Assembly (NCBI GenBank): GCA_944323645.1
Contig: CALUTE010000001.1
Location: forward strand, 138,466 to 202,465
Length of the DNA: 64,000 bases
From: an uncultured Helicobacter sp.
Lineage (GTDB): Bacteria; Campylobacterota; Campylobacteria; Campylobacterales; Helicobacteraceae
Direction: 5' to 3'
The stretch's first letter is position 1. Every line of letters begins with the position of its first letter. Below are positions 1,960-41,409 of the stretch, one piece after another. A program made the translations under genes and the position numbers. The notes beneath the pieces were generated by a model. The model did not search any database. It saw nothing but the letters and a program-made list of their open reading frames with translations, and was not told the origin of the DNA.

Positions 1960-2079
1960 TTGGGCTTCCCTTGTTATAGACTCTATCTCAACCTTAGGCT
2001 TAAGAGGGTTATTGTTTTATAGTATATCAAACTTCTTTTAGCTACAATCTTCTTAATACTATAACAATTAAGGATATTT

Positions 2080-17008: not shown

Positions 17009-17227
17009 ATGACATTTGGCTATAAACTTGTTATGTTTGGATTCCCGGCTTTGTGTGAAGATCTTGATGAGGTGTATATGCGCATACGACAAATCCCAAC
17101 CCAACGCGCCCAAGCCGAAACCCTTGAGCAATGTTATCTTATCGATCTTACAAGCGGCGAAAAATATCAAATCACCTGTGATGAAAAAGAATTTTTTATA
17201 CAGGGTATAGAAAAACCTAATAGTTAA
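17009..17227 (+). CDS. Small hypothetical protein (72 aa)
   Basis: ATG at 17009 follows aaaagg. Composition is non-repetitive (MTFGYKLVMFGFPALCEDLDEVYMRIRQ...). Convergent with the HTH gene, overlapping it by 11 nt. No recognisable family. Confidence 0.3.
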   Translation: MTFGYKLVMFGFPALCEDLDEVYMRIRQIPTQRAQAETLEQCYLIDLTSGEKYQITCDEKEFFIQGIEKPNS

Positions 17228-18173
17228 ATGAAGTTTGCGTGCGATATTCTGCGGAAATAGCACACGCAAAAAAAGGTGCAAGTGCTGTATTTGTGCGTAT
17301 ATAATGGTAAAAATCATAGAGAGTTTGGTTGTTTTTTAGGCATTTTTGCAAAGATCTTAGGATTGCTAAAGATTCCTTTGTTGCAATATGTTTTGGTGCA
17401 TTTGATGGAGTAGTAAAATGCTTGTGGATTCTGCTCACAAGCTGCTTGTTGCAAACCTCCAAAATAAGCGATTCTATCGGCATTTTGAAAAACATCAAAT
17501 TGTTTATGGGATTTATCGAAGCATAGGTTGTGTCTATGCCTAACACATCGTTGTTTTGTGCATCAAAAAGATAGAGACTTTTATTGTAATTATCCTCAAA
17601 AGTCTCTATCATCAGTGCTAAAACATCTTTTTTTTGGGTTTGTGTGTAAAAATTGCCAATTGGAGAAAATGCAAAATGCAGCAAAGATTCTATACTATAC
17701 CACTCAACACTTTCAAAACTAGCATCTAGAATCCTATTGCAACGTTCTTGGCGTAAGTTTTTTGCCCTCTGCGAATTACCAAACTTATAGGGAAATGCTA
17801 TGATTTTATCGCGGTAAGCAGGACCTGGGAAACGTGGGTGAATAACAAAACGCCTCTCGTATTCTTTCTCTAAAATGTACTCCAAGCCTCCTTCATAGCC
17901 TCTATCAATGATAGCTATTTCACTTTTAGGAACATAAGTTAGCAACGTAAAAAATTCGTCCTTATCGCATTGCGTATCCCAGATTCTCTCTGGATATCGA
18001 AAAAACCTTGCCACAGAATCTAGTACTTCCTTTGGCGGATCTTTTGTTACACTTTTGTTGATCCATGATGTTAGTGTGCGCCTATCTTTGCCAATAATAT
18101 TTGCAAAGCGTGAAACACTCATTCCTGAACGTTCATAAATAGTTATTAGCTTTTCTAAAATACTAAGCTTCAT
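17217..18173 (-). CDS. HTH-domain protein of unknown family; candidate regulator of the divergent prp cluster
   Basis: 318 aa. N-terminal XRE/Cro-like helix-turn-helix (GMSVSRFANIIGKDRRTLTSWINK). The roughly 250-aa C-terminal domain has no motif I recognise. Divergently transcribed from the gene at 18449. Confidence 0.7.
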   Translation of the reverse strand: MKLSILEKLITIYERSGMSVSRFANIIGKDRRTLTSWINKSVTKDPPKEVLDSVARFFRYPERIWDTQCDKDEFFTLLTYVPKSEIAIIDRGYEGGLEYILEKEYERRFVIHPRFPGPAYRDKIIAFPYKFGNSQRAKNLRQERCNRILDASFESVEWYSIESLLHFAFSPIGNFYTQTQKKDVLALMIETFEDNYNKSLYLFDAQNNDVLGIDTTYASINPINNLMFFKMPIESLILEVCNKQLVSRIHKHFTTPSNAPKHIATKESLAILRSLQKCLKNNQTLYDFYHYIRTNTALAPFFACAISAEYRTQTSFNY

Positions 18174-18448: not shown

Positions 18449-19792
18449 ATGAATATACAAGAGTTGTACAAACAAAAACTAACGAGTGCCAAAGAAGCCG
18501 TACAAGTTATTAAATCAGGTGATTGGGTGGATTATGGCTGGGCTGTTACAACACCCATAGCACTTGATAAGGCTTTGAGTGAGCGCGCTAATGAGCTAGA
18601 AGATGTCAAACTTCGTGGTGGGATTTTAGTGCAAATGCCAGAAGTGTTCAAAGTTGATCCAAAAGGCGAACACTTTTTATGGAATACGTGGCATGCAAGT
18701 GGTATTGGAAGAAAGCTTATCGATCAGGGGGTTGGATTTTATATCCCTATGCGCTACTCCGAATTACCCCGCTACTATGAAGAAACCGCTGCCACACCTG
18801 ATGTAGCAATGTTGCAAGTTGCACCTATGGATAAGCATGGATATTTCAATTTTGGACCAAGCGCTTCGCATTTAGCTGCCTGCATAAAACAAGCAAAAAA
18901 GGTTATTGTAGAAGTAAATACGAATATACCAAGATGTCTTGGAGGCTTTGGGACAGAAGTTCATATCTCCCAAGTTGATATGATTGTAGAAGGAGAGAAC
19001 CCACCCCTTATCGAAATCCAAAAGCCACCAATTACCCAAGCAGATAGTATGATAGCGCAGTTTGTTGTTGAAGAAATTCGCAACGGCTCTTGCATACAAC
19101 TAGGTATAGGCGGTATGCCCAATGTCATAGGATCTTTTATCGCCAAATCCGATTTAAAAGACCTAGGCGTACACACCGAAATGTATGCAGATGCATTTGT
19201 AGAAATGAGCCTTGCTGGCAAAATCAATGGCAAACGGAAAAACATCGACACAGGCAGGCAAACCTATTCCTTTGCAATGGGAAGCAAAAAGCTATATGAG
19301 TTTTTAGATGATAATCCAGAATGTATGAGTGCCCCTGTTAGTTATACCAACGATGTGCGCACAATCGCCTCGCTTGATAATTTTATATCGATTAATAATG
19401 CCGTAGATATTGATCTCTTTGGGCAGGTCAATTCAGAATCTGCCGGAACAAGACACATAAGCGGAACAGGCGGGCAGCTTGATTTTGTGCTTGGTGCATA
19501 TTTGGCAAAAAACGGCAAGAGTTTTATATGCTGCTCTTCGACTATGCAAGCAAAAGATGGCTCACTAAAATCTAGGATTCTGCCGACTCTGCAAGAAGGT
19601 AGTATAGTAACTGCTACAAGAGCTAGCGTACAATATCTTGTTACAGAATATGGTAAGGTTCATCTCAAAGGACTTTCCACTTGGGAAAAATGCGAGGCAA
19701 TCATCTCAATCGCCCATCCAGATTTTAGAGAAAATCTCATTCAAAAAGCCCAAGAGATGAAAATCTGGAGACAAAGCAACAAAATCCGCTAA
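18449..19792 (+). CDS. Acetyl-CoA hydrolase/transferase family CoA-transferase (butyryl-CoA:acetate CoA-transferase-like); probable propionate CoA-transferase
   Basis: 447 aa. The N-terminus ([30 protein letters not shown]...VKLRGG...RYSELPRYY) closely matches my recollection of the butyryl-CoA:acetate CoA-transferase family. RBS aaaggag. First gene of the prp cluster. Confidence 0.8.
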
Positions 19793-20049
19793 TGTTTAAA
19801 AGTGGCTTTTAGCGCGTAAAAGTGGTAGCACAATACCAAATATATCTATGGTATATTATAAAAGCTTTTCTAAAAGTAACATCACCTTAGTTACCATAAT
19901 ATAAAGAGTTTTACATTGTTAATGTAAAAGTTTTATACTAAGAATAAGGAGAAAATTCATACAAAGAATAAAAAATATCTTTGTATTTTTCTTTGGTAAT
20001 AAAAAGCTGGTACAGAACAATAACTGACCACTATAATTAAGGAGTAAAA

Positions 20050-20916
20050 ATGAGTGCTGGAAAAAAATTCAGAGAAGCAGTCAAAAACAATCACCCCCTG
20101 CAGATTCTGGGCGTGATCAATGCCTATTCTGCCATACAAGCACAAAAAAGCGGTGCCAAGGCATTATACCTAAGTGGTGGGGCATTGGCTGCTATGAGCT
20201 TGGGTGTGCCAGATCTTGGCATTAGCTCACTCGAAGATGTCTGCATTGATGTACGCAGAATTACCAATGTGAGTGATTTGCCACTACTTGTGGATGCTGA
20301 TACGGGCTGGGGCGGAGCGTTTAATATCGCACGCACCATCAAAGACCTCACGCGTTCGGGTGCTGCAGGCTGCCATATAGAAGACCAAGTCGCCCAAAAG
20401 CGTTGCGGACACCGCCCAAACAAAGAGCTTGTAAGCAAAGATGAAATGTGCGATAGGATTAAAGCCGCCATTGATGGCAAGATAGATTCTGAATTTGTCG
20501 TAATGGCACGCACTGATGCACACGCAAGTGAAGGGCAACAAGCAGCGATTGAAAGAGCGTTAGCCTATGTGGAAGCAGGGGCAGATATGATCTTTGCTGA
20601 GGCAATCCATACACTTGAGGAGTATAAGCAATTCACAGATGTGATCAAAGTCCCTGTGTTAGCAAATATCACAGAATTTGGTAAGACACCATATTTCACA
20701 ACAGATGAGCTAAAAAGTGTGGGAATCTCTATGGTGCTCTACCCTCTAAGTGCTGCACGCGCGATGAATAAAGCCGCGCTTGAAGTCTTTAACGACATTC
20801 TCAAAAACGGCTCACAAAAAGCAAGTATCGAAAAAATGCAAACACGCGAAGAGTTGTATGAAATGCTAGGCTATCACGCCTATGAGCAAAAACTCGATGC
20901 GTTGTTTAAAAAATAA
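20050..20916 (+). CDS. prpB: 2-Methylisocitrate lyase
   Basis: 288 aa. PEP mutase/ICL superfamily motifs ([23 protein letters not shown]). RBS aaggag. Confidence 0.93.
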
Positions 20917-20938
20917 TCTTAAACACAAAGGAGAAACT

Positions 20939-22084
20939 ATGGGAGAAGCGGCAAAAGGAAAAGTTGGAGGACTAGCAGGTGTTATCGCTGGAAAATCTGC
21001 GATCTGCACCGTTGGCACAGGACATGGGCTAAATTATCGTGGCTATGATATTTATGATCTAGCAAAACACGCGGAGTTTGAGGAGGTAGCCTATTTGCTA
21101 CTAAAGGGCACATTGCCCACCAAAGCGGAGTTGGCGGATTTTAAAGCCGAGCTTATCAAAGCGCGCGCACTGCCCAAAGAAATGCGCGAAGCACTCAAGC
21201 TTTTGCCTAAAGACGCGCATCCAATGGATGTGATGAGGACGGGCTGCTCGATTTTGGGCTGCCTGGAGCAAGAGCACTTGAGCGTAGCAAAAATGAGCTT
21301 CCCAGATCAGCTCAAAATCGGTATTCGTTTGCTTGGGATATTCCCCTCCATTCTACTATTTTGGCATCATTGGCACAAAAGCGGCACAGAGATGGATACA
21401 GAATCTAAGCAAGATTCTATCGGTGGGTATTTCCTAGAAAAACTCCACAACAAAGAGCCAAAAGATCTGTGGGTGCGTGCCATGCATGTGAGCCTTATCC
21501 TCTATGCTGAGCATGAGTTCAACGCCTCGACCTTCACTTCACGCGTGGTGAGTGCGACTCTCTCTGATGTATATTCAGCGATCACTGCAGCGATTGGAGC
21601 GTTGCGAGGACCATTGCATGGTGGAGCAAACGAAGCAGCTATGGAGCTTTTAGAGGAATTCAAAAGCGTGGAGGAAGCCACAAAAGGCATTTATGAAAAG
21701 CTTGCTAATAAAGCTAAGATTATGGGATTTGGGCATCGTGTGTATGTCAAGGCAGATCCACGCAATGTTGTCATCAAAGAGTGGAGCAAAAAACTTGGCG
21801 ATGATGTAGGCGATACGAAATTGCTTTATCCTATTAGTGAGGCGATTGAAAAAATTATGTGGGACGAGAAAAAACTCTTCCCAAATCTTGACTTTTATAG
21901 TGCATCAGCGTATCACTTTATGGGGATTCCGACCTCGTATTTCACGCCGATTTTCATTATGAGTCGCACCAGTGGCTGGCTCGCACATATCTATGAACAA
22001 CGCGCTGATAACAAGCTCATACGCCCAAGCTCAGAATACACAGGACCAGAAAATAAGGCGTATGTGAAAATCGAGGATCGCTAG
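20939..22084 (+). CDS. prpC: 2-Methylcitrate synthase
   Basis: Citrate synthase family (GLNYRGYDIYDLA, GPLHGGANE, GFGHRVY). ATG 20939 preceded by aaaggagaa. The track ORF start at 20882 overlaps prpB and was rejected. Confidence 0.92.
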   Translation: MGEAAKGKVGGLAGVIAGKSAICTVGTGHGLNYRGYDIYDLAKHAEFEEVAYLLLKGTLPTKAELADFKAELIKARALPKEMREALKLLPKDAHPMDVMRTGCSILGCLEQEHLSVAKMSFPDQLKIGIRLLGIFPSILLFWHHWHKSGTEMDTESKQDSIGGYFLEKLHNKEPKDLWVRAMHVSLILYAEHEFNASTFTSRVVSATLSDVYSAITAAIGALRGPLHGGANEAAMELLEEFKSVEEATKGIYEKLANKAKIMGFGHRVYVKADPRNVVIKEWSKKLGDDVGDTKLLYPISEAIEKIMWDEKKLFPNLDFYSASAYHFMGIPTSYFTPIFIMSRTSGWLAHIYEQRADNKLIRPSSEYTGPENKAYVKIEDR

Positions 22085-22335
22085 ACTCTAAAGTATGGGC
22101 ATTTGGGGTTTTGAGCGAGAATGCCAATACAGAATCTAAATTCTATAGTTAGGCGATGCTTGCCCATAAGGGCTGACACGAAATTCTAGGATTGTGCGCA
22201 AGATTTGGATATTTTTAAGCGGCGGCGCAGGGAGCATACTAGAGCGTATGTGACCAAGCCGCCGCGCCAACAATATTCAAATATTGTGTGCAAGCCGAAT
22301 TTACCTTAAATTCATTACATCACAAGGAGAACACA

Positions 22336-23790
22336 ATGAGTGCTGATATGGGAATCTTAGACACCAAACGACCGGAGTTTGACGAACTGCTTACAAAAAT
22401 CGCGAAATACGCACTAGAATACAAGATAGATTCCAAACTCGCGTATGAAACCGCGCGCTACTGCCTTATGGATACTATTGGATGTGGGCTTTTAGCACTA
22501 GAGTTTCCTGCTTGCACCAAGCTATTAGGACCAGTGGTAGAGGGAGCAGAGTTTCGCCCACTAGGAGCGAAAATCCCCGGAACAAGCTATCAGCTAGAGC
22601 CAGAGAGAGCGGCATTTAATGTCGGTGCGATGGTGCGATGGCTAGACTTTAATGATACTTGGCTTGCGGCAGAATGGGGACACCCAAGCGATAATCTTGG
22701 AGCAATTTGGGCAGTGGCAGATTATTTAAGCCGCAAAAACATCGCTGAAGGCAAAGCCCCTCTTACCGTAAAAGACGCGCTAAGTGCGATGATAAAAGCC
22801 CATGAGATTCAAGGAGTTTTAGCACTTGATAATTGCTTTAACAAAGTTGGGCTTGATCATGTGCTGCTTGTGCGTATCGCTTCTACAGCAGTAGCGTGTG
22901 CGATGCTTGGCGGGACTTTTGAAGAAGTGCGCAATGCTGTAAGCCACGCATTTATTGATGGTGGCGCATTGCGAACATATCGTCACGCACCAAACACAGG
23001 CTCTCGCAAAAGCTGGGCAGCGGGCGATGCAAGTAGCAGAGGTGTGAATCTAGCGCTTAAAGCACTAAGTGGCGAGATGGGCTACCCAAGCGCGCTAAGT
23101 GCGAAGTTCTGGGGATTTGAAGATGTGAAAATGCGAGGAGCTAAACTTACTATCCCACAAGAATTTGGCAGCTATGTAATGGAAAATGTGCTATTTAAAA
23201 TCAGCTTCCCGGCGGAATTCCACGCGCAAACTGCGGTTGAGTGCGCCCTAAAGCTTCATGATGAAGTCAAAGATAGGCTAGATTCTATCGAGAAGATCGT
23301 CATCACTACCCAAGAATCTGGACATAGAATCATCAACAAAGTAGGACCACTCGCTAATCCAGCCGACAGAGACCACTGCATTCAGTATATGGTGGCTGTG
23401 CCGCTTATCTTTGGACGATTGACTGCAGATGATTATGAAGATAGCGTGGCAAATGATCCGCGAATTGATGCATTGCGCGATAAAATGGTGGTAGAAGTTG
23501 ATGATCGCTACACTAAAGAATATTTAGAATCTGATAAACGCTCTATCGCCAATGCCGTGCAGATTTTCTACAAAGACGGTAGCCAAAGCCAAAAGGTAGA
23601 AGTGGAATATCCTATCGGGCATAGACGTCGCAGAGATGAGGGGATCCCTGTGCTTGTGGCAAAATTTGAGCGCAACATCGCACGCAAACTAAGCCCTAAA
23701 AAATGTGCCAAAATAAAAGAGGTATGCGCAAATCAAGCGAGCTTAGAATCTATGCCATTCAATGAATTTAGCGATCTATTCTCGCTTTAA
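22336..23790 (+). CDS. prpD: 2-Methylcitrate dehydratase
   Basis: MmgE/PrpD family, about 484 aa (ARYCLMDTIGCG, DFNDTWLAAEWGHPSDN). ATG 22336 preceded by caaggaga. Confidence 0.92.
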   Translation: MSADMGILDTKRPEFDELLTKIAKYALEYKIDSKLAYETARYCLMDTIGCGLLALEFPACTKLLGPVVEGAEFRPLGAKIPGTSYQLEPERAAFNVGAMVRWLDFNDTWLAAEWGHPSDNLGAIWAVADYLSRKNIAEGKAPLTVKDALSAMIKAHEIQGVLALDNCFNKVGLDHVLLVRIASTAVACAMLGGTFEEVRNAVSHAFIDGGALRTYRHAPNTGSRKSWAAGDASSRGVNLALKALSGEMGYPSALSAKFWGFEDVKMRGAKLTIPQEFGSYVMENVLFKISFPAEFHAQTAVECALKLHDEVKDRLDSIEKIVITTQESGHRIINKVGPLANPADRDHCIQYMVAVPLIFGRLTADDYEDSVANDPRIDALRDKMVVEVDDRYTKEYLESDKRSIANAVQIFYKDGSQSQKVEVEYPIGHRRRRDEGIPVLVAKFERNIARKLSPKKCAKIKEVCANQASLESMPFNEFSDLFSL

Positions 23791-29593: not shown

Positions 29594-30714
29594 ATGGTGA
29601 GCAGAAATTCGCATTTAGGGGCACTAGATAGTTTTCGAGGGATTGCGGCACTCAGTGTAGTGGTGTTTCATTTATCTATCGTTGGTGCTATTAGTGAATG
29701 GGAGTTTTTTAGGCATTCTGGCTTGTTTGTGCCATTTTTCTTTGTGCTAAGTGGCTTTGTCATCGCCTATGTGTATGATAAGGCTTCTTTTAGTATGAAA
29801 AACTTTATGATTGCACGAAGCTTTAGAATCTTGCCTTTATATTATGTGTTACTTTTTGCTTTTCTTATCCTAGAGTGTCTTAAATATGTGCTATACCATA
29901 AACTTGGAATCTTCAACAACACTCCCTTTAGCGATAAAAATGGCATAGAGCAGATTCTGCCAAATATCCTACTACTCCAATCATGGCTTTCTTGGACATA
30001 TCCGCTTTCTTTTAACGCCCCCGCTTGGAGTTTGAGTGTCGAGTGGTATCTTTACATACTTTTTGGACTTGCGATGTTTGCGCCAAGGCTTATGCGCTAT
30101 AGTATAGTGCTATTGTGTGTAGTTGGTGCGTATTTGCATTGGTTTGGTTTTTTGACCAATGAAAGTATTAGTGGTATCTTGCACTTTGGTAGCGGTATGC
30201 TTATCTATCTTATGTTTAGTTTGTGCAAAAACAAAAACCTCGCACCTTTAACACTCACGCTACTTGAACTATGTGCGCTTGTTGTGGGTATTTGGGTGGT
30301 GTATAGTGGTGCTGGAAAATATGCTGTGCTTGCCTTTAGTGCGCTTATTTTGGTGTTTGCCCTTTCATCACACGCCAATATTGCGACTTCTAAGGGGGGG
30401 GGGGGCTAATAACCTTTGTGTTAGAATCTAAACCTTTGTTTTTCTTTGGCACTCTCTCATATAGTATTTATATCTCACATTCTTTTGTGATTGCTCTTAT
30501 AAATATACCCCTAAGATTTTTCACAAAATACGGGTATTACGAGATGAAATATATAGGCGAGAGATTCTACATAGATTTTCATAACCCAATCTTTGCAAAC
30601 CTTTATCTAGTACTAAATCTCTGTATTGTCGTGCTTGTTGCCTATGTTTTACACAAATACATAGAACAACCCTGCATAGCATTTGGTAAAAAGCTATGCA
30701 GCAAAAGTAAATAA
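29594..30714 (+). pseudogene. Acyltransferase family 3 (OafA/YrhL-like) gene split by a frameshift at a G12 tract; phase-variable, OFF in this sequence
   Basis: ORF 29594-30409 (multi-TM, FRGIAALSVVVFH motif) stops just after the G run. ORF 30418-30714 (GTLSYSIYISH motif, the C-terminal half of the family) is in another frame. Reading through by hand, G13 or G10 would fuse them (...ATSKGGGGLITFVLESKPLFFFG...). Confidence 0.85.
30394..30405 (+). repeat. Homopolymeric G12 tract (contingency locus)
   Basis: Counted from the printed blocks: g30394-g30405, inside the acyltransferase reading frame. Confidence 0.9.
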
Positions 30715-36109: not shown

Positions 36110-37228
36110 ATGTTTGATCGCAGAATCTTCACGCACTTTGATTTTTTGCTACCAATTTTGATTACTCCTATTATTGCATTATCATATTTTCTCATTGGCG
36201 AAGTCAATGCTACACTCAATCTCAAGCAAACCGTATATATTAGCTTTGGACTTGTAGCTTTTTTGATCGTATTTTTTATTCCAATACGTCAGCTTGATAG
36301 AACCATTTGGTTATTTTATTGGGTATGTATTGTCTTGCTAATCCTTGTGTATTTTATTGGTACAAAACAACTTGGCGCACAACGTTGGATTATGATTGGC
36401 TCTTTTTCAATTCAGCCAAGCGAACCCGTAAAAATTGCTATCATCTTACTATTGGGACTCCATATCCATAATAATCCACCACCACCTGAAGGTTATGGAG
36501 CGAAACAGTTTGCTGTACTAAGTTTTTATATTTTGCTTCCTTTTGTACTTATTCTCAAACAACCAGATTTGGGAACTGCTCTTGTAGTTCTTTTTATGGG
36601 CTTTGGAACACTCTTTTTGATTGGGGTTAATTATAAAATCTGGGTAACACTCGCTGTGCTGATAGCACTAGCTTCACCTCTTATTTATGGATCACTCAAA
36701 GGCTACCAGCTTAAACGTATTAGTGATTTTATATCAGAAAAGCCAAGTTATCATGTCCAACAATCTATTATTACGATTGGTTCTGGAGGCTTGCTTGGCA
36801 AGAAAAAAGAAGAATCATCACAAACACAACTCAAATTCTTGCCTATTGCTACAAGTGATTTTATCTTTGCCTACTTTGCAGAAAGATATGGATTCTTAGG
36901 AAGTCTGTTTTTGCTTATGCTCTATTATTTTTTAATCCTACACATTTTATCCTTTTCGTTACAAGAATCAAAAGATTATCGCTTGCGCACCCATTCGTGT
37001 GGATTAGCTTTATTGCTATTTTTTTATGTAACTGTCAATGTTGGTATGACAATTGGGCTTGCACCAGTAGTGGGCATACCCTTACCATTATTTAGTTATG
37101 GAGGTACAAGTTTTATTACTTTTATGGTGCTTTTTGGCATCTTAGAGAATCTTCTTGCGTTTAGGTTCAATTTTGGCTATAATCGCAATCCTCTTAAAGC
37201 GATTCTGCGCAATCCTAGACGACGCTAA
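36110..37228 (+). CDS. rodA: SEDS-family peptidoglycan polymerase, probably RodA
   Basis: 372 aa, about 10 TM helices. FtsW/RodA/SpoVE blocks (QPSEPVKI, TSDFIFAYFAERYGFLG, GLAPVVGIPLPLFSYGGTS). The short N-terminus favours RodA over FtsW. Confidence 0.8.
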   Translation: MFDRRIFTHFDFLLPILITPIIALSYFLIGEVNATLNLKQTVYISFGLVAFLIVFFIPIRQLDRTIWLFYWVCIVLLILVYFIGTKQLGAQRWIMIGSFSIQPSEPVKIAIILLLGLHIHNNPPPPEGYGAKQFAVLSFYILLPFVLILKQPDLGTALVVLFMGFGTLFLIGVNYKIWVTLAVLIALASPLIYGSLKGYQLKRISDFISEKPSYHVQQSIITIGSGGLLGKKKEESSQTQLKFLPIATSDFIFAYFAERYGFLGSLFLLMLYYFLILHILSFSLQESKDYRLRTHSCGLALLLFFYVTVNVGMTIGLAPVVGIPLPLFSYGGTSFITFMVLFGILENLLAFRFNFGYNRNPLKAILRNPRRR

Positions 37229-37231
37229 ATT

Positions 37232-37308
37232 GGATCTTTAGCTCAGCTGGTCAGAGCACTCGGCTCATAACCGATTGGTCGTAGGTTCAAATCCTACAAG
37301 ATCCACCA
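37232..37308 (+). tRNA. tRNA with CAT anticodon (elongator Met or lysidine-modified Ile2; resembles Ile2)
   Basis: Hand-folded cloverleaf. Acceptor stem GGATCTT/AAGATCC, D-arm GCTC..GAGC, anticodon loop CTCATAA, T-arm GTAGG-TTCAAAT-CCTAC, encoded CCA. The G1-C72 pair and weak anticodon stem argue against the initiator. The TTGGTCG variable region is like E. coli Ile tRNAs, from memory. Confidence 0.9.
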
Positions 37309-37444
37309 CATTAAACTTTTTATATCTTTCTTTACTTGCAAACTAAACTTCACATTGTTTTAGGGTAATTTCTGAAATTTTTTACTTTAGATAAAAAAAA
37401 TTATTAATAGCTATTAAATATTAACTAATTAATGATATAAATTC

Positions 37445-37481
37445 ACTTGTCCCTGTTTTGCCCACCTAAGCAGGGACAAGT
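37445..37481 (+). other. Perfect 11-bp stem hairpin (GC-rich) in an AT-rich spacer
   Basis: ACTTGTCCCTG (37445-37455) and CAGGGACAAGT (37471-37481), with a 15-nt loop. A second hairpin (CCCACTC...GAGTGGG) follows about 30 nt downstream and is itself followed by a T-rich stretch. Confidence 0.6.
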
Positions 37482-37606
37482 GACAAAAGACTTTTTAAGT
37501 TCCTTTCTGTACCCACTCTCTCCCAAGCCAAGGGAGTGGGCTTTCTCATTACAATTATTTTATGAAACTTTATACTATAATGTTCTTCTCAAATCAAGGA
37601 GTATAT

Positions 37607-40309
37607 ATGCGCGTTTTGGTTTTGATGCGAGGTATCCCAGGTAGTGGTAAGAGTTCTTGGATTAAGCAATTTGGACTTGAAGATTATGCATTAAGCCCTG
37701 ATGCTATACGACTTATGTTTGAAGCTCCCTCACTGCTCATATTACCAAAAAATGAAGAAAATAAAGATTCTTCTGTTTTTCAAGCAATTGCACAGCAATA
37801 TGATAAACAAGTATGGAAAACTCTTTTTACCATACTAGAATCGCGCCTCGAGCGAGGGAATTTTACAATCATCGATGCTACACACATAAGTCATGATGCA
37901 TTGCGTGCATACGAAGTGCTAGCAAGTAAATACCGCTATCGCATTGTAGTTATTGACTTTAGTCATATTCCTCTAGAAACTGCAAAACGCCAAAATCGTA
38001 TGCGAGGCTTTAAAAGCGTACCAGATTCTGTTATAGAATCTATGCATATTCGCTTGCAAGAGTCTATTAAAAACCCTTTGAACACTCGCTATAATATATT
38101 GCGATCAGATACAATATCGCCTCTCGTACTCTACAATGAACAAAACAATGTCACCACATATTTGCAACAGCTTGATGCAATGTCTTCTAGCTCAAAAAAT
38201 GTATCCTTTAATCCCTTAATCTTTGCTCCAACAAACCTTAATAGCTATAAGAAAATTCACCATATTGGTGATATCCATGGTTGTTTTAATGTCCTTTTGA
38301 CATATTTACTCTTTAGCACAACACTTTCACAAAACAATCCCAATATCCCCAATATCTCTGATATTCTAAAAACTTTACAAACAACAAACTTTGCCAAGGA
38401 AGAATGTGTAAAGCTTATCCAGCCCAATGAATACTATATCTTTCTTGGGGATTATATTGATAGGGGTGTACAAAATGCAGAAGTTATACAATTTTTGCTA
38501 GGCATTATGGATCTACCTAATGTTTGCTTACTTGAGGGCAATCACGAACGCTGGCTTAATAAATGGGGAAGAGAGGATCTTGGAGAAAATGAATTTAGCA
38601 CATTCAGCGCACAAGATCTTGCAAACGCTGCCCTATCACCCAAAGATACACATAGGTTGTATGCCAAATTGCGCCAATGCGCCTACTATATATATGATGA
38701 TAAACTTGTACTTAGTACACACGGAGGTTTATCTACACTTCCCCCAAACTTACTCCTCGTAGCAACGCACCAAATGATTTATGGTGTTGGTGAATATAGT
38801 AATACACAACAATGTGCGCAAAGCTTTACCCTAAGTACTCCTAAGCATATTTATCAGGCTTTTGGTCATCGCAACAAAGAAAAGCTTCCTATGCGCATAT
38901 ATGAGCGCAATCTTGTCCTAGAAGGAAGCGTGGAGTTTGGTGGAGCATTGCGTGTTGCAATACTTGAGCACCACCCTTGTCGATCGTACACTAGCCAATC
39001 ACACTGCACGGATTCTGTTCTTATAAACTCTCCTTTTACAACAAACAATAAACTAATAACCAACTCCTGCGAAACACAACATATCAAGCAAAATTCCTTT
39101 ATAGGAGTGATATGGCGAAATGATAAATTTACTGAAATTTATGTGCAAAACCGTAGCAATCTTATGCAGCAAAACGAGCGCCACCAAGCGCGTTCTATCT
39201 TTAAACTACTTGACAAACTACGTTCTAATAAATATATCAAAGAGCGCGAGTTCAAGCATATTTCTAGCTTCAATTTCACCAAGCAAGCCTTTTTTGATAA
39301 GCATTGGAATGAGATTGTATGCAAAGCGCGGGGATTGTTTATCAATACGCGCGATATGAAGATTTTAGCGCGCAGTTATGACAAATTTTTTAACTATCAA
39401 GAGTGTGCGACCACAACAAAAGAATACCTCAAAGAGCACCTATCTTATCCTATTGAAGTATTTGCTAAAGAAAATGGATTTTTGGGAATTATAAGTGTTG
39501 AAGATGATAGCCTTTTTGTTACCTCTAAATCTGACCCTACAAGCGAGTATGCCGGCATAGCACGCGCCCTGATACAGCAAACACTCTACTCCCATGCAAA
39601 TACCATAAACTGCACAGCAAGCACCTTAGAGTACAAGCTCTGCAAACACCTAAAAAAGCAGAATCTAAGTCTTGTTGTTGAGGTTATCCACCCAGAAAAA
39701 GACCCCCATATCATCGCATACAATAAGCCACAAATCATACTGCTCGATGCGATATACAATACACTCACATACAAAAAACTTCCATATAACGAACTGTGCG
39801 CACTTGGTAGAGAATTTGGATTGCCCTGTAAGCAACATATAGCCTCTCTCGCATCGTGGGAAGAATTAGAAATATTTTTGCAAAATCTAAAATACGTACA
39901 AGCAGAATCTAAATACCAAGTGTACGATGATAGTATATTAGATACCACCTCACCAACCACAGAATCTAACGCTTTTGTAGTACATTTACTAGATTCTGGG
40001 GAGCGCGAGCGTGGATTTATTGAAGGGTTTGTTTTGGAAGATAACACAGGGTTTATGTTTAAATATAAAACTCCATACTATCGCTTCTGGAAAGAATTGC
40101 GTACAAAAATAGAAAAAGCATTATGCACACGGACACTTCCAAAGCCTTCCAAATGCCATACTAGTATTGAAATATCTAATCTTGAGAGCGCTTTTTTAAA
40201 ATATATTGCTGAAAGGATTGACAAATATGGTTTTGAGAAATTAGAGCGTATGAGTCTTGTTGCTCTACGCGCACAATTTCTTAAAGAACAATCTAAAGCA
40301 AACATATAA
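37607..40309 (+). CDS. pnkp: Polynucleotide kinase-phosphatase / RNA ligase (Pnkp-type trifunctional RNA repair enzyme)
   Basis: 900 aa from MRVLVLMRGIPGSGKSS (P-loop kinase). Central calcineurin-like phosphoesterase motifs (IGDIHG, GDYIDRG, GNHE, THGG, GHR). C-terminal nucleotidyltransferase motifs: I KENG (Lys codon 39467-39469), IV EGFVLE, V FKYKT. RBS aaggag and a TATAAT about 26 nt upstream. Confidence 0.8.
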   Translation: MRVLVLMRGIPGSGKSSWIKQFGLEDYALSPDAIRLMFEAPSLLILPKNEENKDSSVFQAIAQQYDKQVWKTLFTILESRLERGNFTIIDATHISHDALRAYEVLASKYRYRIVVIDFSHIPLETAKRQNRMRGFKSVPDSVIESMHIRLQESIKNPLNTRYNILRSDTISPLVLYNEQNNVTTYLQQLDAMSSSSKNVSFNPLIFAPTNLNSYKKIHHIGDIHGCFNVLLTYLLFSTTLSQNNPNIPNISDILKTLQTTNFAKEECVKLIQPNEYYIFLGDYIDRGVQNAEVIQFLLGIMDLPNVCLLEGNHERWLNKWGREDLGENEFSTFSAQDLANAALSPKDTHRLYAKLRQCAYYIYDDKLVLSTHGGLSTLPPNLLLVATHQMIYGVGEYSNTQQCAQSFTLSTPKHIYQAFGHRNKEKLPMRIYERNLVLEGSVEFGGALRVAILEHHPCRSYTSQSHCTDSVLINSPFTTNNKLITNSCETQHIKQNSFIGVIWRNDKFTEIYVQNRSNLMQQNERHQARSIFKLLDKLRSNKYIKEREFKHISSFNFTKQAFFDKHWNEIVCKARGLFINTRDMKILARSYDKFFNYQECATTTKEYLKEHLSYPIEVFAKENGFLGIISVEDDSLFVTSKSDPTSEYAGIARALIQQTLYSHANTINCTASTLEYKLCKHLKKQNLSLVVEVIHPEKDPHIIAYNKPQIILLDAIYNTLTYKKLPYNELCALGREFGLPCKQHIASLASWEELEIFLQNLKYVQAESKYQVYDDSILDTTSPTTESNAFVVHLLDSGERERGFIEGFVLEDNTGFMFKYKTPYYRFWKELRTKIEKALCTRTLPKPSKCHTSIEISNLESAFLKYIAERIDKYGFEKLERMSLVALRAQFLKEQSKANI

Positions 40310-40473
40310 TAATCACTGCGAAATTTGCTAGTACCTCTGTATAGAAAAAGGGCTAAACAGAGAAAAAGAAAAAGCTTCTAGAACTACAAAAACCATACTA
40401 GAATCTAGATATAATCTGTATAGCAGAATATCCTATAAGAACCACTGCCTAAAGGTTTTTGCTAAGCAAGATA

Positions 40474-41409
40474 TTACAAGCGCTCCTCAAAAGCTCCATA
40501 ACGCATAATTTTTTCATAACGCTTTTTGAGATAGTCTTTGTCCTTAAGAATTTCGCTAAGACTTTGTAGAAAATACTGCTTAATGTTTTGTGCTGCACTT
40601 TCTTTATCGCGATGCGCACCACTTAGTGGCTCTGGAATAATATCATCTATAAGATTAGCTTTTTTGAGTTCATCAGGAGTAATTTTCATCGCCTTTGTAG
40701 CAGATTCTATCTTAGCCGGATCGTTCCAAAGAATAGCTGCGCACCCTTCGGGTGAGATAACACTAAAGATTGAATATTGCATCATTGCAAGTCTATCAGC
40801 CACAGCAATAGCAAGTGCGCCACCACTACCACCTTCACCAATCACAACAGAAATTGTAGGTGTGCGTAAAGAAGAAAACTCTTGCAGATTTTTAGCTATA
40901 GCCTCACTTTGTCCGCGCTCTTCTGCCCCAATACCCGGATACGCTCCAGCCGTATCAACTAACATAAGAATGGGAAGTTTGAATTTTTCTGCGAGTTTAG
41001 CCGCTTTTAAAGCCTTGCGGTATCCTTCTGGGTTTGGCATACCAAAATTACGCGTAATTTTGTTCTTTGTCCCTCTACCTTTCTCTTCTCCGATAACAAG
41101 TACTGGCTGATCATCAATTTTGCCAATCATACACACAATCGCCTTATCATCGCGAAAATGCCTATCACCGCAAATCTCGTAAGAATCTTTGAGAATAATC
41201 TCTATATAATCGAGTGCATAAGGTCTATCAGGATGGCGCGCCAACTGGAGCTTCTGGTAATCGCTCATATTGCCATAAACTTTTTTTAGCTCTTTTTCTA
41301 GATCTTGTTGCAGGATTTCCTTTGCTGCTAAATCCCCACGCATAGTTGCCATTTCTATATCATCTTGAATGCTCTTTATTTGCCTCTCAAAATCTAGACA
41401 AGTCGCCAT
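40474..41409 (-). CDS. accA: Acetyl-CoA carboxylase carboxyltransferase subunit alpha
   Basis: 311 aa. Characteristic LDFERQI..., HPDRPY and [21 protein letters not shown] blocks. Confidence 0.96.

What the first reader, a model, noticed from the sequence alone, without database searches (positions are those of the whole stretch)
37607..40309. Orphan trifunctional Pnkp-type RNA repair enzyme without a Hen1 partner, adjacent to a tRNA gene
The 900-aa protein combines three domains:
- A P-loop polynucleotide kinase (GIPGSGKS).
- A binuclear metallophosphoesterase (GDIHG, GDYIDRG, GNHE, GHR).
- A C-terminal covalent nucleotidyltransferase/RNA ligase module (KENG, EGFVLE, FKYKT).

This is the architecture of bacterial Pnkp. 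In the characterised systems (Clostridium thermocellum-type), pnkp is co-operonic with hen1, and the Hen1 N-terminal domain is needed to activate sealing and to 2'-O-methylate the junction.

Here the gene is monocistronic. A promoter-like TATAAT lies upstream, and only 164 nt of non-coding DNA separates it from the convergent accA. No methyltransferase lies anywhere in the window.

This implies one of three things: an autonomous ligase, an unknown partner encoded elsewhere, or a repurposed enzyme, for example healing and sealing of tRNAs cut by ribotoxins or phage-defence anticodon nucleases. I do not recall such RNA repair being described in Helicobacter.
Basis: partly seen in the sequence, partly recalled or inferred. 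Interest (0 to 1): 0.7.

Follow-up and report, generated by a model that had tools for sequence, protein, structure and literature searches.

The report
Bacterial RNA repair enzyme, Trl1-type ligase
This Helicobacter gene encodes one protein that can probably mend cut RNA unaided (kinase, phosphatase and ligase in one chain); it is not a Pnkp that lost its Hen1 partner, because its ligase part is the kind found in fungal tRNA ligase, and the same protein family is common in gut Firmicutes and in phages.

Summary
A 900-aa ORF (37607-40309, +) carries a P-loop polynucleotide kinase, a binuclear metallophosphoesterase and a lysine-nucleotidyltransferase ligase. All the quoted motifs are in place. 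tRNA-Met lies 298 nt upstream and convergent accA 164 nt downstream.

The kinase and phosphatase resemble Clostridium thermocellum Pnkp. The ligase module does not belong to the Hen1-dependent Pnkp (Rnl4) clade. By sequence profile (E 1e-36) and by predicted fold (TM about 0.7) it is a Trl1-LIG/"Rnl6"-type ligase, including the all-helical C-domain specific to that clade. The bacterial Pnkp equivalog model scores 65 bits against a cut-off of 750.

The protein belongs to a large stand-alone family: relatives in 287 species genomes, 192 phage records and 477 clusters at 50% identity. No Hen1 or other conserved neighbour was found. The missing Hen1 is therefore expected, not anomalous.

The most interesting open point concerns the His-Arg-Arg triad, which enforces the 2'-phosphate requirement in fungal ligase. 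Here it is conserved family-wide as His-Lys-Arg. Pnkp-type phosphoesterases open cyclic ends to a 2'-phosphate intermediate. Whether this enzyme seals 2'-PO4 ends is untested.

Verdict: an uncharacterised variant of known heal-and-seal RNA repair, of moderate interest.

The parts
37232..37308 (+). tRNA-Met (anticodon CAT) directly upstream. The order rodA-like gene, tRNA, repair gene is conserved in four Helicobacter lineages.
   Evidence: ARAGORN. The same order is seen in L002, L005 and L006.
37443..37483 (+). Strong hairpin with a 16-bp stem between the tRNA and the repair gene. It is a likely transcript end or insulator for the upstream unit.
   Evidence: RNA fold of 37436-37556: -42.7 kcal/mol, z = -5.7 against shuffles. 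The hairpin is unique in the window.
37512..37540 (+). Second hairpin, with a 10-bp stem, followed by a U-rich tract.
37576..37581 (+). TATAAT -10-like hexamer. It lies downstream of the alternative ATG at 37562.
   Evidence: Sequence. Promoter-like matches in the region are not enriched over chance.
37596..37601 (+). AAGGAG ribosome-binding site, 5 nt before ATG 37607.
37607..40309 (+). CDS of 900 aa plus stop codon: a trifunctional RNA heal-and-seal enzyme.
   Evidence: AlphaFold2 model: mean pLDDT 87, pTM 0.81.
37607..38086 (+). Domain 1 (aa 1-160): P-loop polynucleotide 5'-OH kinase of the T4 Pnk / CthPnkp type. Key residues are the P-loop G9-S16 (K15), D32, R35 and R133.
   Evidence: Pfam AAA_33. 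PDB sequence hits to T4 Pnk 1ly1 and CthPnkp kinase 4gp6. Foldseek hit to 4gp7 with target TM-score 0.77. The residues are nearly invariant in 205 relatives.
38240..38971 (+). Domain 2 (aa 212-455): binuclear metallophosphoesterase of the lambda-phosphatase / CthPnkp type. Key residues are D222, H224, D282, R286, N312, H313, H372 and H421.
   Evidence: Pfam Metallophos. Foldseek hits to 1g5b and 4j6o, target TM-score about 0.6. Residue conservation: H224 is His in 171 and Gln in 33 of 205 relatives.
39104..40072 (+). Domain 3a (aa 500-822): Trl1/Rnl1-type adenylyltransferase. It comprises the N sub-domain and the NTase core. Key residues are K621 (motif I, KENG), K641 (motif Ia), E692 (motif III), H701, E806-E811 (motif IV) and K819/K821 (motif V).
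   Evidence: Pfam PF09511, E 1.8e-42, full profile length. Profile against PDB. Foldseek. Residue conservation.
40073..40306 (+). Domain 3b (aa 823-900): all-helical C-domain homologous to the Trl1-LIG ('Rnl6') C-domain. It carries K829 and R832, the equivalents of Chaetomium Trl1 Arg334 and Arg337.
   Evidence: The profile alignment runs through chain residues 326-397 of 6n0v and 9qw7. The model shows helices 823-841, 854-874, 876-880 and 884-899. K829 is Lys in 197 and Arg in 4 relatives; R832 is Arg in 198 of 201.

Best explanation
The gene encodes a self-sufficient, single-polypeptide RNA 'heal-and-seal' enzyme.

Proposed steps (inferred from family membership and conserved catalytic residues, not assayed):
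1. The N-terminal P-loop kinase phosphorylates the 5'-OH end of a broken RNA.
2. The central Mn-type binuclear phosphoesterase opens the 2',3'-cyclic phosphate end. In the homologous C. thermocellum enzyme this proceeds through a 3'-OH/2'-PO4 intermediate.
3. The C-terminal ATP-dependent ligase adenylylates itself on Lys621, transfers AMP to the 5'-PO4, and joins the ends.

The ligase module is a bacterial member of the Trl1-LIG ('Rnl6') clade, the closest relatives of T4 Rnl1. It is not the Hen1-activated Rnl4 module of Pnkp, so no Hen1 or other partner is needed or expected.

The likely substrates are tRNAs or other translation RNAs cut by ribotoxins, toxin-antitoxin RNases or anticodon nucleases. 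The family is shared between cellular genomes (enterohepatic Helicobacter, gut Clostridia, some Bacilli) and large Firmicutes and actinobacterial phages.

The end chemistry at the junction (2'-OH or 2'-PO4) is unresolved. See the two sub-hypotheses among the rivals.
For: Domains and fold:
- Three Pfam domains in the order kinase, phosphoesterase, ligase.
- High-confidence AlphaFold2 model: pLDDT 87, pTM 0.81.
- Best structural matches are Trl1-LIG (8rbj, 6n67, 6n0v, 9qw7; E about 1e-17 to 1e-18; target TM-score 0.68-0.70; about 400 aligned columns). T4 Rnl1 follows at TM 0.54. CthPnkp kinase gives TM 0.77. Lambda-phosphatase and CthPnkp phosphatase give TM about 0.6.
- The ligase-domain profile against PDB gives Trl1-LIG at 1.3e-36 and 2.8e-31 across the NTase and the C-domain. 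T4 Rnl1 scores 6e-14 over the NTase only. Nothing else scores at E <= 10.

Conservation:
- All catalytic residues of the three modules are invariant or nearly so in 205 full-length relatives at 30-55% identity. All three activities therefore appear to be under selection.

The family is large and always stand-alone:
- 2366 hits, and the top 120 all have the same architecture.
- 287 species genomes hold a relative.
- 477 clusters at 50% identity score E <= 1e-30 with the ligase domain alone.
- A full-length PHROG family, phrog_8238, matches at E 1.7e-167.
- 192 phage records match, 101 of them at full length.
- Clustering of neighbours over 80 loci found no conserved partner.
- The neighbours in eight other Helicobacter loci are unrelated housekeeping genes.

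Literature basis for the chemistry:
- The CthPnkp phosphoesterase makes a 2'-phosphomonoester intermediate. When it is limited to that step, it cooperates with yeast Trl1-LIG in tRNA splicing (PMC1920235; PMC3675462).
Against: - No activity was measured. Kinase, phosphoesterase and ligase functions are inferred from homology.
- No ribotoxin, anticodon nuclease or other RNA-damaging gene was found next to the gene, in the window or in the related loci. The physiological substrate is therefore unknown.
- PADLOC has no model that matches the protein.
- CthPnkp-type kinases also act on DNA 5'-OH ends, so a nucleic-acid specificity other than RNA is not strictly excluded.
Confidence: 0.8

Rival explanations
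1. Yeast-type chemistry, a sub-hypothesis of the best explanation. The phosphoesterase delivers a 3'-OH/2'-PO4 end. The Trl1-type ligase requires or strongly prefers that 2'-phosphate, gripping it with His701, Lys829 and Arg832. The repaired RNA then carries a 2'-PO4 at the junction. This group would later be removed by a Tpt1/KptA-type 2'-phosphotransferase, or by the enzyme's own phosphomonoesterase.
For: - In fungal LIG the sulfate/2'-PO4 ligands are His227, Arg334, Arg337 and Asn150. They are described as unique to the Trl1 clade (PMC6379707).
- Mutating them slows RNA adenylylation 60- to 420-fold (PMC11404444).
- Through the profile alignment they map to H701, K829, R832 and N623. In the family these are H in 203 of 203, K in 197 plus R in 4, R in 198 of 201, and N in 203 of 205.
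- The Trl1-specific C-domain that carries the two basic residues is present.
- CthPnkp-type phosphoesterases open the cyclic end to a 2'-PO4 intermediate, and H189D CthPnkp works with Trl1-LIG.
- 33 of 205 family members carry Gln at the His189-equivalent position while keeping every other catalytic residue. In CthPnkp, His-to-Gln or His-to-Asn changes there do not support phosphomonoesterase activity.
Against: - The first arginine of the triad is Lys, not Arg, in almost all members.
- The determinants of full dephosphorylation in CthPnkp (Arg237, His264, His189) are conserved here as R286, H313 and H224. A 2',3'-diol end is therefore the default expectation for the window protein.
- No Tpt1/KptA gene lies in the window or within 10 kb of the gene in any of 82 loci.
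- Phages that carry this enzyme and phages that carry KptA belong to almost non-overlapping host genera.
- In CthPnkp, H189Q also lowers cyclic phosphodiesterase activity.
Confidence: 0.35
2. Phage-T4-type chemistry, the other sub-hypothesis. The phosphoesterase removes the phosphate completely, giving a 2',3'-diol as wild-type CthPnkp and T4 Pnkp do. The ligase seals 3'-OH/2'-OH with 5'-PO4, as T4 Rnl1 does, and leaves an ordinary phosphodiester. The conserved His-Lys-Arg pocket would serve another purpose, for example holding a backbone phosphate.
For: - The phosphoesterase active site is a full match to the diesterase-monoesterase CthPnkp and lambda-phosphatase site.
- Wild-type CthPnkp channels tRNA repair down the T4 pathway.
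- There is no linked Tpt1.
- The family is common in phages. For a phage, a finished and functional tRNA without a 2'-PO4 would be the simplest outcome.
Against: - The ligase is clearly closer to Trl1-LIG than to T4 Rnl1: E 1e-36 against 6e-14, and TM 0.7 against 0.54.
- It has the Trl1 C-domain rather than the Rnl1 C-domain.
- The pocket residues that the literature calls unique to the 2'-PO4-dependent clade are almost invariant.
Confidence: 0.45
3. This is a canonical bacterial Pnkp whose ligase module needs a Hen1-type activator and 2'-O-methyltransferase. The activator would be encoded elsewhere in the genome, or would have been lost, leaving a sealing-incompetent enzyme.
For: - The domain order is the same as in CthPnkp.
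- The kinase and phosphoesterase hit CthPnkp structures.
- Shuman's group called such Helicobacter proteins 'CthPnkp-like' in 2007.
Against: - TIGR04075 scores 65 bits against a cut-off of 750, and the match does not reach the ligase region.
- There is no sequence or fold match to the Pnkp ligase domain.
- No Hen1 or methyltransferase is present in the window.
- No conserved neighbour exists in 80 loci.
- The ligase motifs and the C-domain are conserved across hundreds of stand-alone homologues, phage copies included.
Confidence: 0.03
4. The enzyme works on DNA rather than RNA. It would process 5'-OH/3'-phosphate DNA ends and ligate them. Alternatively its ligase domain acts only as an adenylyltransferase or end-modifier and does not seal.
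For: - CthPnkp kinase phosphorylates DNA as well as RNA 5'-OH ends (text).
- CthPnkp's own ligase domain adenylylates but does not seal alone.
Against: - Every structural relative of the sealing domain is an RNA ligase: Trl1, Rnl1 and archaeal Rnl3.
- In fungal LIG the C-domain is needed for end joining, not for self-adenylylation. It is present and conserved here.
Confidence: 0.05

Closest known systems
Clostridium thermocellum Pnkp (Pnkp-Hen1 RNA repair system; NCBIfam TIGR04075)
   Same: - Same order of three modules in one polypeptide of similar size.
- Homologous P-loop 5'-OH kinase (Foldseek target TM-score 0.77).
- Homologous lambda-phosphatase-type binuclear phosphoesterase, with the same active-site residues: D222, H224, D282, R286, N312, H313, H372 and H421.
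   Different: - The ligase module belongs to a different clade: Trl1/Rnl6-type here, Rnl4 in Pnkp.
- There is no Hen1 gene, no Hen1-binding requirement is expected, and no 2'-O-methylation step is available.
- The equivalog model scores less than a tenth of its cut-off.
Fungal/plant tRNA ligase Trl1: its LIG domain, the 'Rnl6' clade (PDB 6n0v, 6n67, 8rbj, 9qw7)
   Same: - The sealing domain is homologous over its N sub-domain, NTase core and the clade-defining helical C-domain (E 1e-36; TM about 0.7).
- Motif I Lys, motif Ia Lys and motifs III to V are conserved.
- The 2'-PO4-binding His, the second Arg and the Asn are conserved.
   Different: - The domain order is reversed: kinase-phosphoesterase-ligase here, ligase-kinase-CPD in Trl1.
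- The 3' healing domain is a metallophosphoesterase, not a 2H cyclic phosphodiesterase.
- The first triad arginine is lysine.
- The host is a bacterium with no spliceosome-independent tRNA introns of the eukaryotic type.
- No linked Tpt1 was found.
Bacteriophage T4 Pnkp plus Rnl1 (tRNA restriction-repair)
   Same: - Same overall logic: a kinase and a 3' phosphatase heal the ends, then an Rnl1-related ATP-dependent ligase seals them without a helper.
- The kinase is homologous to T4 Pnk (1ly1).
- The family is widespread in phages.
   Different: - One polypeptide here instead of two.
- The phosphatase is a metallophosphoesterase, not a DxDxT acylphosphatase.
- The ligase C-domain is Trl1-like, not the tRNA-binding C-domain of Rnl1.
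Phage 'RNA ligase' family phrog_8238 (for example Staphylococcus phage Twort ORF008, and proteins of SPbeta-like Bacillus phages)
   Same: - Full-length homologues with the same three domains: 30-33% identity over 99% of the protein and PHROG E 1.7e-167.
- Also encoded as stand-alone genes.
   Different: - Shorter, about 720-750 aa. They lack the Helicobacter-specific low-complexity insertions.
- Carried on phage genomes rather than in a chromosomal housekeeping context.
- No biochemical study of them was found in the searchable literature.
Pnkp1-Rnl-Hen1 complex (Capnocytophaga; PMC4411300)
   Same: A bacterial RNA repair system that combines kinase-phosphatase healing with a separate type of RNA ligase.
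   Different: - It is a three-protein heterohexamer that still depends on Hen1.
- Here everything is in one chain and no Hen1 is present.

Membership tests
Bacterial Pnkp of the Pnkp-Hen1 system (TIGR04075) | N-terminal 5'-OH kinase, central binuclear metallophosphoesterase and C-terminal ligase in one polypeptide | tested here: met
   Pfam domains appear in this order. Structural matches to CthPnkp kinase 4gp7 and CthPnkp phosphatase 4j6o.
Bacterial Pnkp of the Pnkp-Hen1 system (TIGR04075) | Whole-protein match to the curated equivalog model above its cut-off | tested here: not met
   65.3 bits against a cut-off of 750. Only profile positions 9-270 of 851 are matched.
Bacterial Pnkp of the Pnkp-Hen1 system (TIGR04075) | Rnl4-type ligase/adenylyltransferase domain, which needs the Hen1 N-domain to seal | tested here: not met
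   The ligase-domain profile finds no Pnkp ligase chain in PDB at E <= 10. None appears in the Foldseek top 50. The best matches are Trl1-LIG.
Bacterial Pnkp of the Pnkp-Hen1 system (TIGR04075) | Adjacent co-oriented hen1 gene | tested here: not met
   - The flanking genes are tRNA-Met/rodA and accA.
- No methyltransferase or Hen1 domain was found in 40 scanned window ORFs.
- No conserved neighbour exists in 80 loci.
- The rest of the genome could not be searched.
[quoted passage not shown] | Covalent nucleotidyltransferase motifs I (KxxG), Ia, III, IV and V | tested here: met
   K621-E-N-G, K641, E692, E806-G-F-V-L-E811 and K819/K821. These align to K148, K169 and motifs III to V of Chaetomium Trl1. 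They are invariant in the family.
[quoted passage not shown] | Clade-specific all-helical C-terminal domain appended to the adenylyltransferase (PMC6379707) | tested here: met
   The profile alignment continues through chain residues about 326-397 of 6n0v and to residue 354 of 9qw7, including the terminal IIxLRxxF helix. The model has four to five helices at aa 823-899. Whole-domain target TM-score is 0.68-0.70. T4 Rnl1 aligns over the NTase only.
[quoted passage not shown] | His-Arg-Arg triad that binds the terminal 2'-PO4 (His227, Arg334, Arg337 in Chaetomium) | tested here: inconclusive
   His is present (H701, 203 of 203). The second Arg is present (R832, 198 of 201). The first position is Lys (K829, 197 K and 4 R). 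It is basic but not identical. The mapping rests on a sequence alignment, not on coordinates.
[quoted passage not shown] | Biochemical requirement for a 3'-OH/2'-PO4 end for sealing | not testable with these tools
   Needs enzyme assays with pRNA bearing a 2'-PO4 end against pRNA bearing a 2'-OH end.
Full-length eukaryotic Trl1 (tRNA ligase) | Architecture of LIG, GTP-dependent kinase and 2H cyclic phosphodiesterase | tested here: not met
   The order here is kinase, metallophosphoesterase, LIG. No 2H/CPD domain is present.
T4 Rnl1 family (NCBIfam TIGR02308) | Equivalog-level match, including the Rnl1 C-terminal tRNA-specificity domain | tested here: not met
   TIGR02308 scores 27.6 bits against a cut-off of 242. 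The PDB profile match to 2c5u covers only profile positions 43-263. Foldseek target TM-score is 0.54 with rmsd 10 A.
Binuclear metallophosphoesterase, lambda-phosphatase / CthPnkp type | Metal and phosphate ligands: DxH, GDxxDR, GNH(E/D), H, GH | tested here: met
   D222/H224, D282/D285/R286, N312/H313, H372 and H421 are present and nearly invariant. Foldseek hits to 1g5b and 4j6o.
P-loop polynucleotide 5'-OH kinase, T4 Pnk / CthPnkp type | Walker A GxxxxGK(S/T), a catalytic Asp and a phosphate-binding Arg shortly after it, and a downstream Arg | tested here: met
   G9-S16, D32, R35 and R133 are nearly invariant. PDB hits 1ly1 and 4gp6. Foldseek target TM-score 0.77. Kinase activity itself was not tested.

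The most novel reading that the evidence does not exclude
This bacterial and phage family is a prokaryotic branch of the Trl1 ('Rnl6') ligases that has kept the 2'-phosphate-dependent sealing chemistry.
- The Pnkp-type phosphoesterase supplies a 3'-OH/2'-PO4 end.
- The ligase seals it and leaves an internal 2'-PO4.
- This would be the first bacterial pathway known to make RNA with internal 2'-phosphates.
- It would give the long-orphan bacterial Tpt1/KptA 2'-phosphotransferases a natural substrate.
- Alternatively, the enzyme's own phosphomonoesterase could act as a built-in junction 'cleaner'.
- It would also place the origin of the eukaryotic tRNA ligase sealing domain in bacterial or phage RNA repair.
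Probability: 0.3. Interest if true: 0.75.

Novelty: new variant of a known kind. Interest (0 to 1): 0.45.

Why it matters
Known bacterial RNA repair falls into three kinds:
- Pnkp-Hen1, and Pnkp1-Rnl-Hen1.
- RtcB/RtcA.
- The phage T4 Pnkp + Rnl1 pair.

This gene stands for a fourth arrangement. It is widespread and, as far as the searchable literature shows, has not been studied biochemically. A Pnkp-type healing cassette is fused to a Trl1-type sealing domain. In effect, nature has built the hybrid that Shuman's laboratory made artificially when it paired CthPnkp-H189D with yeast Trl1-LIG.

Three consequences follow:
1. It corrects the idea that a Hen1 partner is missing.
2. It shows that Trl1-type ligases, usually discussed as fungal and plant enzymes and as antifungal targets, have close relatives in gut bacteria and in phages.
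3. It makes a long-standing question directly testable: whether any bacterial pathway produces RNA 2'-phosphates. PMC6097658 states that none is known, despite widespread bacterial Tpt1. One recombinant protein and two synthetic RNA substrates would suffice.

For Helicobacter biology, it points to RNA damage by ribotoxins, toxin-antitoxin RNases or phage defence as a selective pressure in the enterohepatic species.

Tried and rejected
- **Promoter claim.** The TATAAT exists, but sigma-70-like matches in 37200-40500 are at or below chance. It is no evidence by itself.
- **Terminator downstream.** No terminator-like site was found in the 164-nt spacer. Its fold is only mildly better than shuffles, z = -2.2.
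- **Repeated element.** The upstream hairpin is unique in the window, so it is not a REP-like repeat.
- **Recent horizontal transfer or island.**
  - GC content of the gene (0.36-0.39) equals that of its surroundings.
  - Helicobacteraceae sequences form one deep clade in a neighbour-joining tree, apart from the Clostridia clade and the Bacilli + phage clade.
  - No integrase or phage genes lie nearby.
  - Recent acquisition is therefore not supported.
- **Defence-system membership.** PADLOC gives no hit.
- **Conserved partner genes.** Clustering of all ORFs from 80 loci found only lineage-restricted synteny, for example a response-regulator/GGDEF protein next to the gene in Acetatifactor and Lachnospiraceae. 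It found no Hen1, Tpt1, RtcB or nuclease.
- **Tpt1 linkage.**
  - tblastn with E. coli KptA against the window and 82 loci found nothing.
  - The host genera of KptA-bearing phages barely overlap those of phages carrying this family.
  - The phiCD211 kptA neighbourhood was uninformative.
- **Anticodon nuclease lead.** In Helicobacter sp. CLO-3 the gene abuts a type I R-M locus with an extra gene between hsdS and hsdR. That 462-aa protein is a coiled-coil membrane protein with no PrrC-like ATPase and no significant Pfam or PADLOC hit.
- **Literature not obtainable here**:
  - Burroughs & Aravind 2016 (NAR 44:8525). From memory, this paper may already catalogue this domain architecture.
  - Martins & Shuman 2005.
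  - Smith et al. 2012.
- **Searches for prior work.** Searches for 'Rnl6', 'Trl1-like/Trl1-type', PF09511, Helicobacter + RNA ligase, and Twort + RNA ligase found no biochemical study of this family.

Full report
**1. The observation**

The window holds an ORF at 37562..40309 on the + strand.
- It is preceded at the right distance by AAGGAG (37596-37601).
- It coincides with the first residue of all aligned orthologues; M1 and R2 are invariant.
- The upstream ATG at 37562 would lie before the TATAAT at 37576-37581.

ARAGORN finds tRNA-Met(CAT) at 37232-37308, 298 nt upstream. Convergent accA begins 164 nt after the stop codon. The promoter-like hexamer is real but carries no statistical weight: 8 matches against 11.7 expected in shuffles. 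Between the tRNA and the gene lie two strong hairpins (37443-37483 and 37512-37540; -42.7 kcal/mol, z = -5.7). Together with the convergent downstream gene, they fit a monocistronic unit.

**2. What the three domains are**

Pfam finds three domains:
- AAA_33, aa 4-151.
- Metallophos, aa 216-421.
- RNA_lig_T4_1 (PF09511), aa 573-825, E 1.8e-42, over the full profile length.

An AlphaFold2 model built on a 61-sequence alignment is confident: pLDDT 87, pTM 0.81. Only four Helicobacter-specific loops are poorly modelled. Foldseek against PDB gives:
- Kinase: C. thermocellum Pnkp kinase (4gp7, target TM-score 0.77) and T4 Pnk (1ly1).
- Phosphoesterase: lambda phosphatase (1g5b) and CthPnkp phosphatase (4j6o), TM about 0.6.
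- C-terminal 400 residues: fungal tRNA ligase Trl1-LIG (8rbj, 6n67, 6n0v, 9qw7; E 3e-18 to 3e-17; TM 0.68-0.70; rmsd about 4 A over about 400 columns). T4 Rnl1 follows (TM 0.54), then archaeal Rnl3 ligases.

**3. It is not a Pnkp in the Pnkp-Hen1 sense**

- The curated NCBIfam equivalog for bacterial Pnkp (TIGR04075) scores 65 bits against a cut-off of 750. It aligns only to profile positions 9-270 of 851, the kinase and the start of the phosphatase.
- A profile built from 29 ligase-domain sequences of this family was searched against all PDB sequences at E <= 10. It returned only eight sequences: five Trl1-LIG entries (1.3e-36 to 1.1e-29) and three T4 Rnl1 entries (6e-14 to 1e-12). The Pnkp ligase domain was absent.
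- The Trl1 alignments run from the N sub-domain through motifs I to V and on through the helical C-domain to its last helix (family consensus IIxLRxxF; GIIKLRN-FL in Trl1).
- The T4 Rnl1 alignments stop at the end of the NTase core.
- Banerjee et al. defined the Trl1-LIG 'Rnl6' clade by exactly this C-domain. They placed CthPnkp-Hen1N in a separate Rnl4 clade (PMC6379707).
- The sealing module here is therefore an Rnl6-type ligase. In eukaryotes this type works without an activator protein.

**4. The family and its context**

Family size:
- The word-indexed search gave 2366 homologues, and the top 120 all have the same three Pfam domains. Where named, they are called 'RNA ligase' or 'AAA family ATPase' in H. 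typhlonius, H. zhangjianzhongii, Helicobacter sp. MIT 21-1697 and others.
- A scan of one genome per species found relatives in 287 genomes. The best 80 include H. japonicus, H. canis, H. zhangjianzhongii, Helicobacter spp. CLO-3 and 15-1451, many Lachnospiraceae/Acetatifactor/Flavonifractor, Thermoactinomyces and Heyndrickxia.
- The ligase domain alone finds 477 clusters at 50% identity with E <= 1e-30. Most are proteins of 710-790 aa with the match at the C-terminus.
- The family is also a phage family. phrog_8238 ('RNA ligase', a 737-position profile) matches at 1.7e-167.
- tblastn finds it in 192 phage records, 101 at full length. These are mainly Staphylococcus Twort-like, Streptomyces, Lactobacillus, SPbeta-like Bacillus and Fusobacterium phages. 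In these phages it is again a stand-alone gene.

Neighbours:
- Clustering every ORF of the 80 loci shows no neighbour conserved beyond closely related taxa.
- In eight other Helicobacter loci the neighbours are unrelated housekeeping genes.
- In the window, 40 of 49 ORFs were scanned and showed no methyltransferase, Hen1, Tpt1 or RtcB.

Origin:
- GC content matches the surroundings.
- In a neighbour-joining tree the Helicobacteraceae sequences form one deep clade. The gene is an old resident of this lineage, not a fresh insertion.
- The window's RecA places the organism in the H. canis / H. fennelliae / CLO-3 group.

**5. Are the three activities likely intact?**

205 full-length relatives share 30-55% identity with one another.
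- Kinase residues G9, G14, K15, S/T16, D32, R35 and R133 are essentially invariant.
- So are phosphoesterase residues D222, D282, D285, R286, N312, H313, H372 and H421.
- So are ligase residues R575, K593, K621, N623, G624, K641, E692, H701, E806, G807, K819 and K821.
- This pattern indicates purifying selection on all three active sites.

**6. How it most likely works**

*Shown:* fold and family assignment of each module, conservation of the catalytic residues, and the absence of a partner gene.

*Inferred:*
- The kinase makes a 5'-PO4.
- The phosphoesterase opens the 2',3'-cyclic phosphate.
- The ligase forms Lys621-AMP, activates the 5'-PO4 and joins the ends.
- The substrates are RNAs cut by metal-independent RNases such as ribotoxins, toxin-antitoxin RNases and anticodon nucleases.
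- The phage distribution mirrors the T4 Pnkp/Rnl1 counter-defence logic and supports this last inference.

I put 0.8 on this overall explanation.

**7. The open and most interesting point: the chemistry of the junction**

*For a 2'-PO4 requirement:*
- In fungal LIG a sulfate that mimics the terminal 2'-PO4 is held by His227, Arg334, Arg337 and Asn150. [quoted passage not shown]
- H227A, R334A and R337A slow RNA adenylylation 420-, 120- and 60-fold (PMC11404444).
- Chain 6n0v uses native numbering; I checked that K148 falls on KENG and K169 on motif Ia. The profile alignment then maps these residues to H701, K829, R832 and N623.
- In the family these are H in 203 of 203, K in 197 plus R in 4, R in 198 of 201, and N in 203 of 205.
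- On the healing side, wild-type CthPnkp opens the cyclic phosphate to a 2'-phosphomonoester and then removes it. The H189D mutant stops at 3'-OH/2'-PO4 and thereby gains the ability to cooperate with yeast Trl1-LIG in tRNA splicing (PMC1920235; PMC3675462).
- The present family is in effect a natural fusion of those two partners.
- 33 of 205 members, including Helicobacter sp. 15-1451 and a Helicobacteraceae MAG, have Gln at the His189-equivalent position while keeping every other catalytic residue. In CthPnkp a Gln or Asn there does not support monoesterase activity, although it also weakens the diesterase.

*Against a 2'-PO4 requirement:*
- The window protein has His224, Arg286 and His313, the full monoesterase set.
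- The first triad residue is Lys, not Arg.
- No Tpt1/KptA lies in the window or within 10 kb of the gene in 82 loci.
- Phages carrying the enzyme infect almost entirely different host genera from phages carrying KptA.

I therefore leave the two chemistries at about 0.35 (2'-PO4) and 0.45 (2'-OH).

**8. Comparison with what is known, and novelty**

- Every module belongs to a known family, and the heal-and-seal logic is textbook.
- Shuman's group noted in 2007 that CthPnkp-like proteins of similar organisation occur in Helicobacter. RefSeq and PHROGs already label family members 'RNA ligase'.
- From memory, the Burroughs & Aravind 2016 survey may already list this architecture. I could not obtain it.
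- I did not find in the searchable literature any biochemical study of the family.
- Nor did I find any statement that its sealing domain is a Trl1/Rnl6-type ligase with the C-domain and most of the 2'-PO4 pocket. Recent Trl1 papers speak of Trl1-type ligases as fungal and plant enzymes.
- I rate it a new variant of a known kind.
- The 'orphan without Hen1' puzzle is resolved as a misassignment of ligase clade.

**9. Verdict**

- The feature is real.
- Interest is moderate (0.45).
- The value lies in a cheap, decisive experiment on 2'-phosphate dependence. That experiment bears on the unexplained presence of Tpt1 in bacteria (PMC6097658) and on the origin of the eukaryotic tRNA ligase.

Noticed in passing
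window 36110-37607; L002 8533-10001; L005 8754-10001; L006 8754-10001: The order rodA/ftsW-like gene, tRNA-Met(CAT), repair gene is conserved in four Helicobacter lineages, while the downstream gene differs in each. In the three other loci the tRNA ends only 45-75 nt before the start codon. In the window the gap is 298 nt and holds two hairpins. Co-transcription with the tRNA in the other species is possible. ARAGORN calls the tRNA Met. Whether it is an elongator tRNA-Met or a lysidine-modified tRNA-Ile2 was not resolved.
   Followed up: partly
family alignment, window residue H224 (nt 38276-38278); L074 and L004: The metal-ligand His of the GDxHG motif (His189 in C. thermocellum Pnkp) is replaced by Gln (GDLQG) in 33 of 205 family members. 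All other catalytic residues of all three domains are intact in these members. They include Helicobacter sp. 15-1451 and a Helicobacteraceae MAG. In CthPnkp, changes at this position reprogramme the 3'-end product.
   Followed up: partly
L034 13392-20578 (Helicobacter sp. CLO-3): In this species the repair gene is convergent with a type I restriction-modification locus, in the order hsdM, hsdS, a 462-aa gene, hsdR. The extra gene sits where prrC sits in E. coli (position recalled from memory). It encodes a coiled-coil protein with C-terminal membrane helices and has no significant Pfam or PADLOC match. It is possibly an abortive-infection effector. This is a single locus, so there is no statistical weight.
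   Followed up: partly
window protein aa 459-496 and 763-784 (nt 38981-39094 and 39893-39958); L034 10001-13339: Helicobacter orthologues carry low-complexity insertions, modelled at pLDDT below 50, between the phosphoesterase and the ligase and inside the ligase domain. The Firmicutes and phage homologues (about 730 aa) lack them. In Helicobacter sp. CLO-3 the insertions expand the protein to 1112 aa.
   Followed up: no
window 29594-30714 (+): An Acyl_transf_3 family gene appears split into two adjacent ORFs of 271 and 98 aa. The first matches only profile positions 3-262 of 326. This could be a frameshifted or pseudogenised acyltransferase, or a sequencing error.
   Followed up: no
window 2-1960 (-) and 17220-18173 (-): Two sizeable ORFs have no Pfam hit at E <= 1e-5 and no PADLOC hit. 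One is 653 aa and runs off the window edge. The other is 318 aa.
   Followed up: partly
window 18449-23790 (+): The window holds a cluster of an acetyl-CoA hydrolase/transferase, a PEP-mutase/isocitrate-lyase family protein (PrpB-like), a citrate-synthase family protein (PrpC-like) and an MmgE/PrpD protein. Together they look like a methylcitrate-cycle operon, next to a TonB-dependent receptor and a Fur-family regulator.
   Followed up: no
L008-L029 and related Lachnospiraceae/Acetatifactor loci: In about 25 Acetatifactor/Lachnospiraceae loci the repair gene is flanked within 10-200 nt by one or two response-regulator/GGDEF (diguanylate cyclase) genes. This looks like lineage-restricted synteny rather than a family-wide association.
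   Followed up: partly
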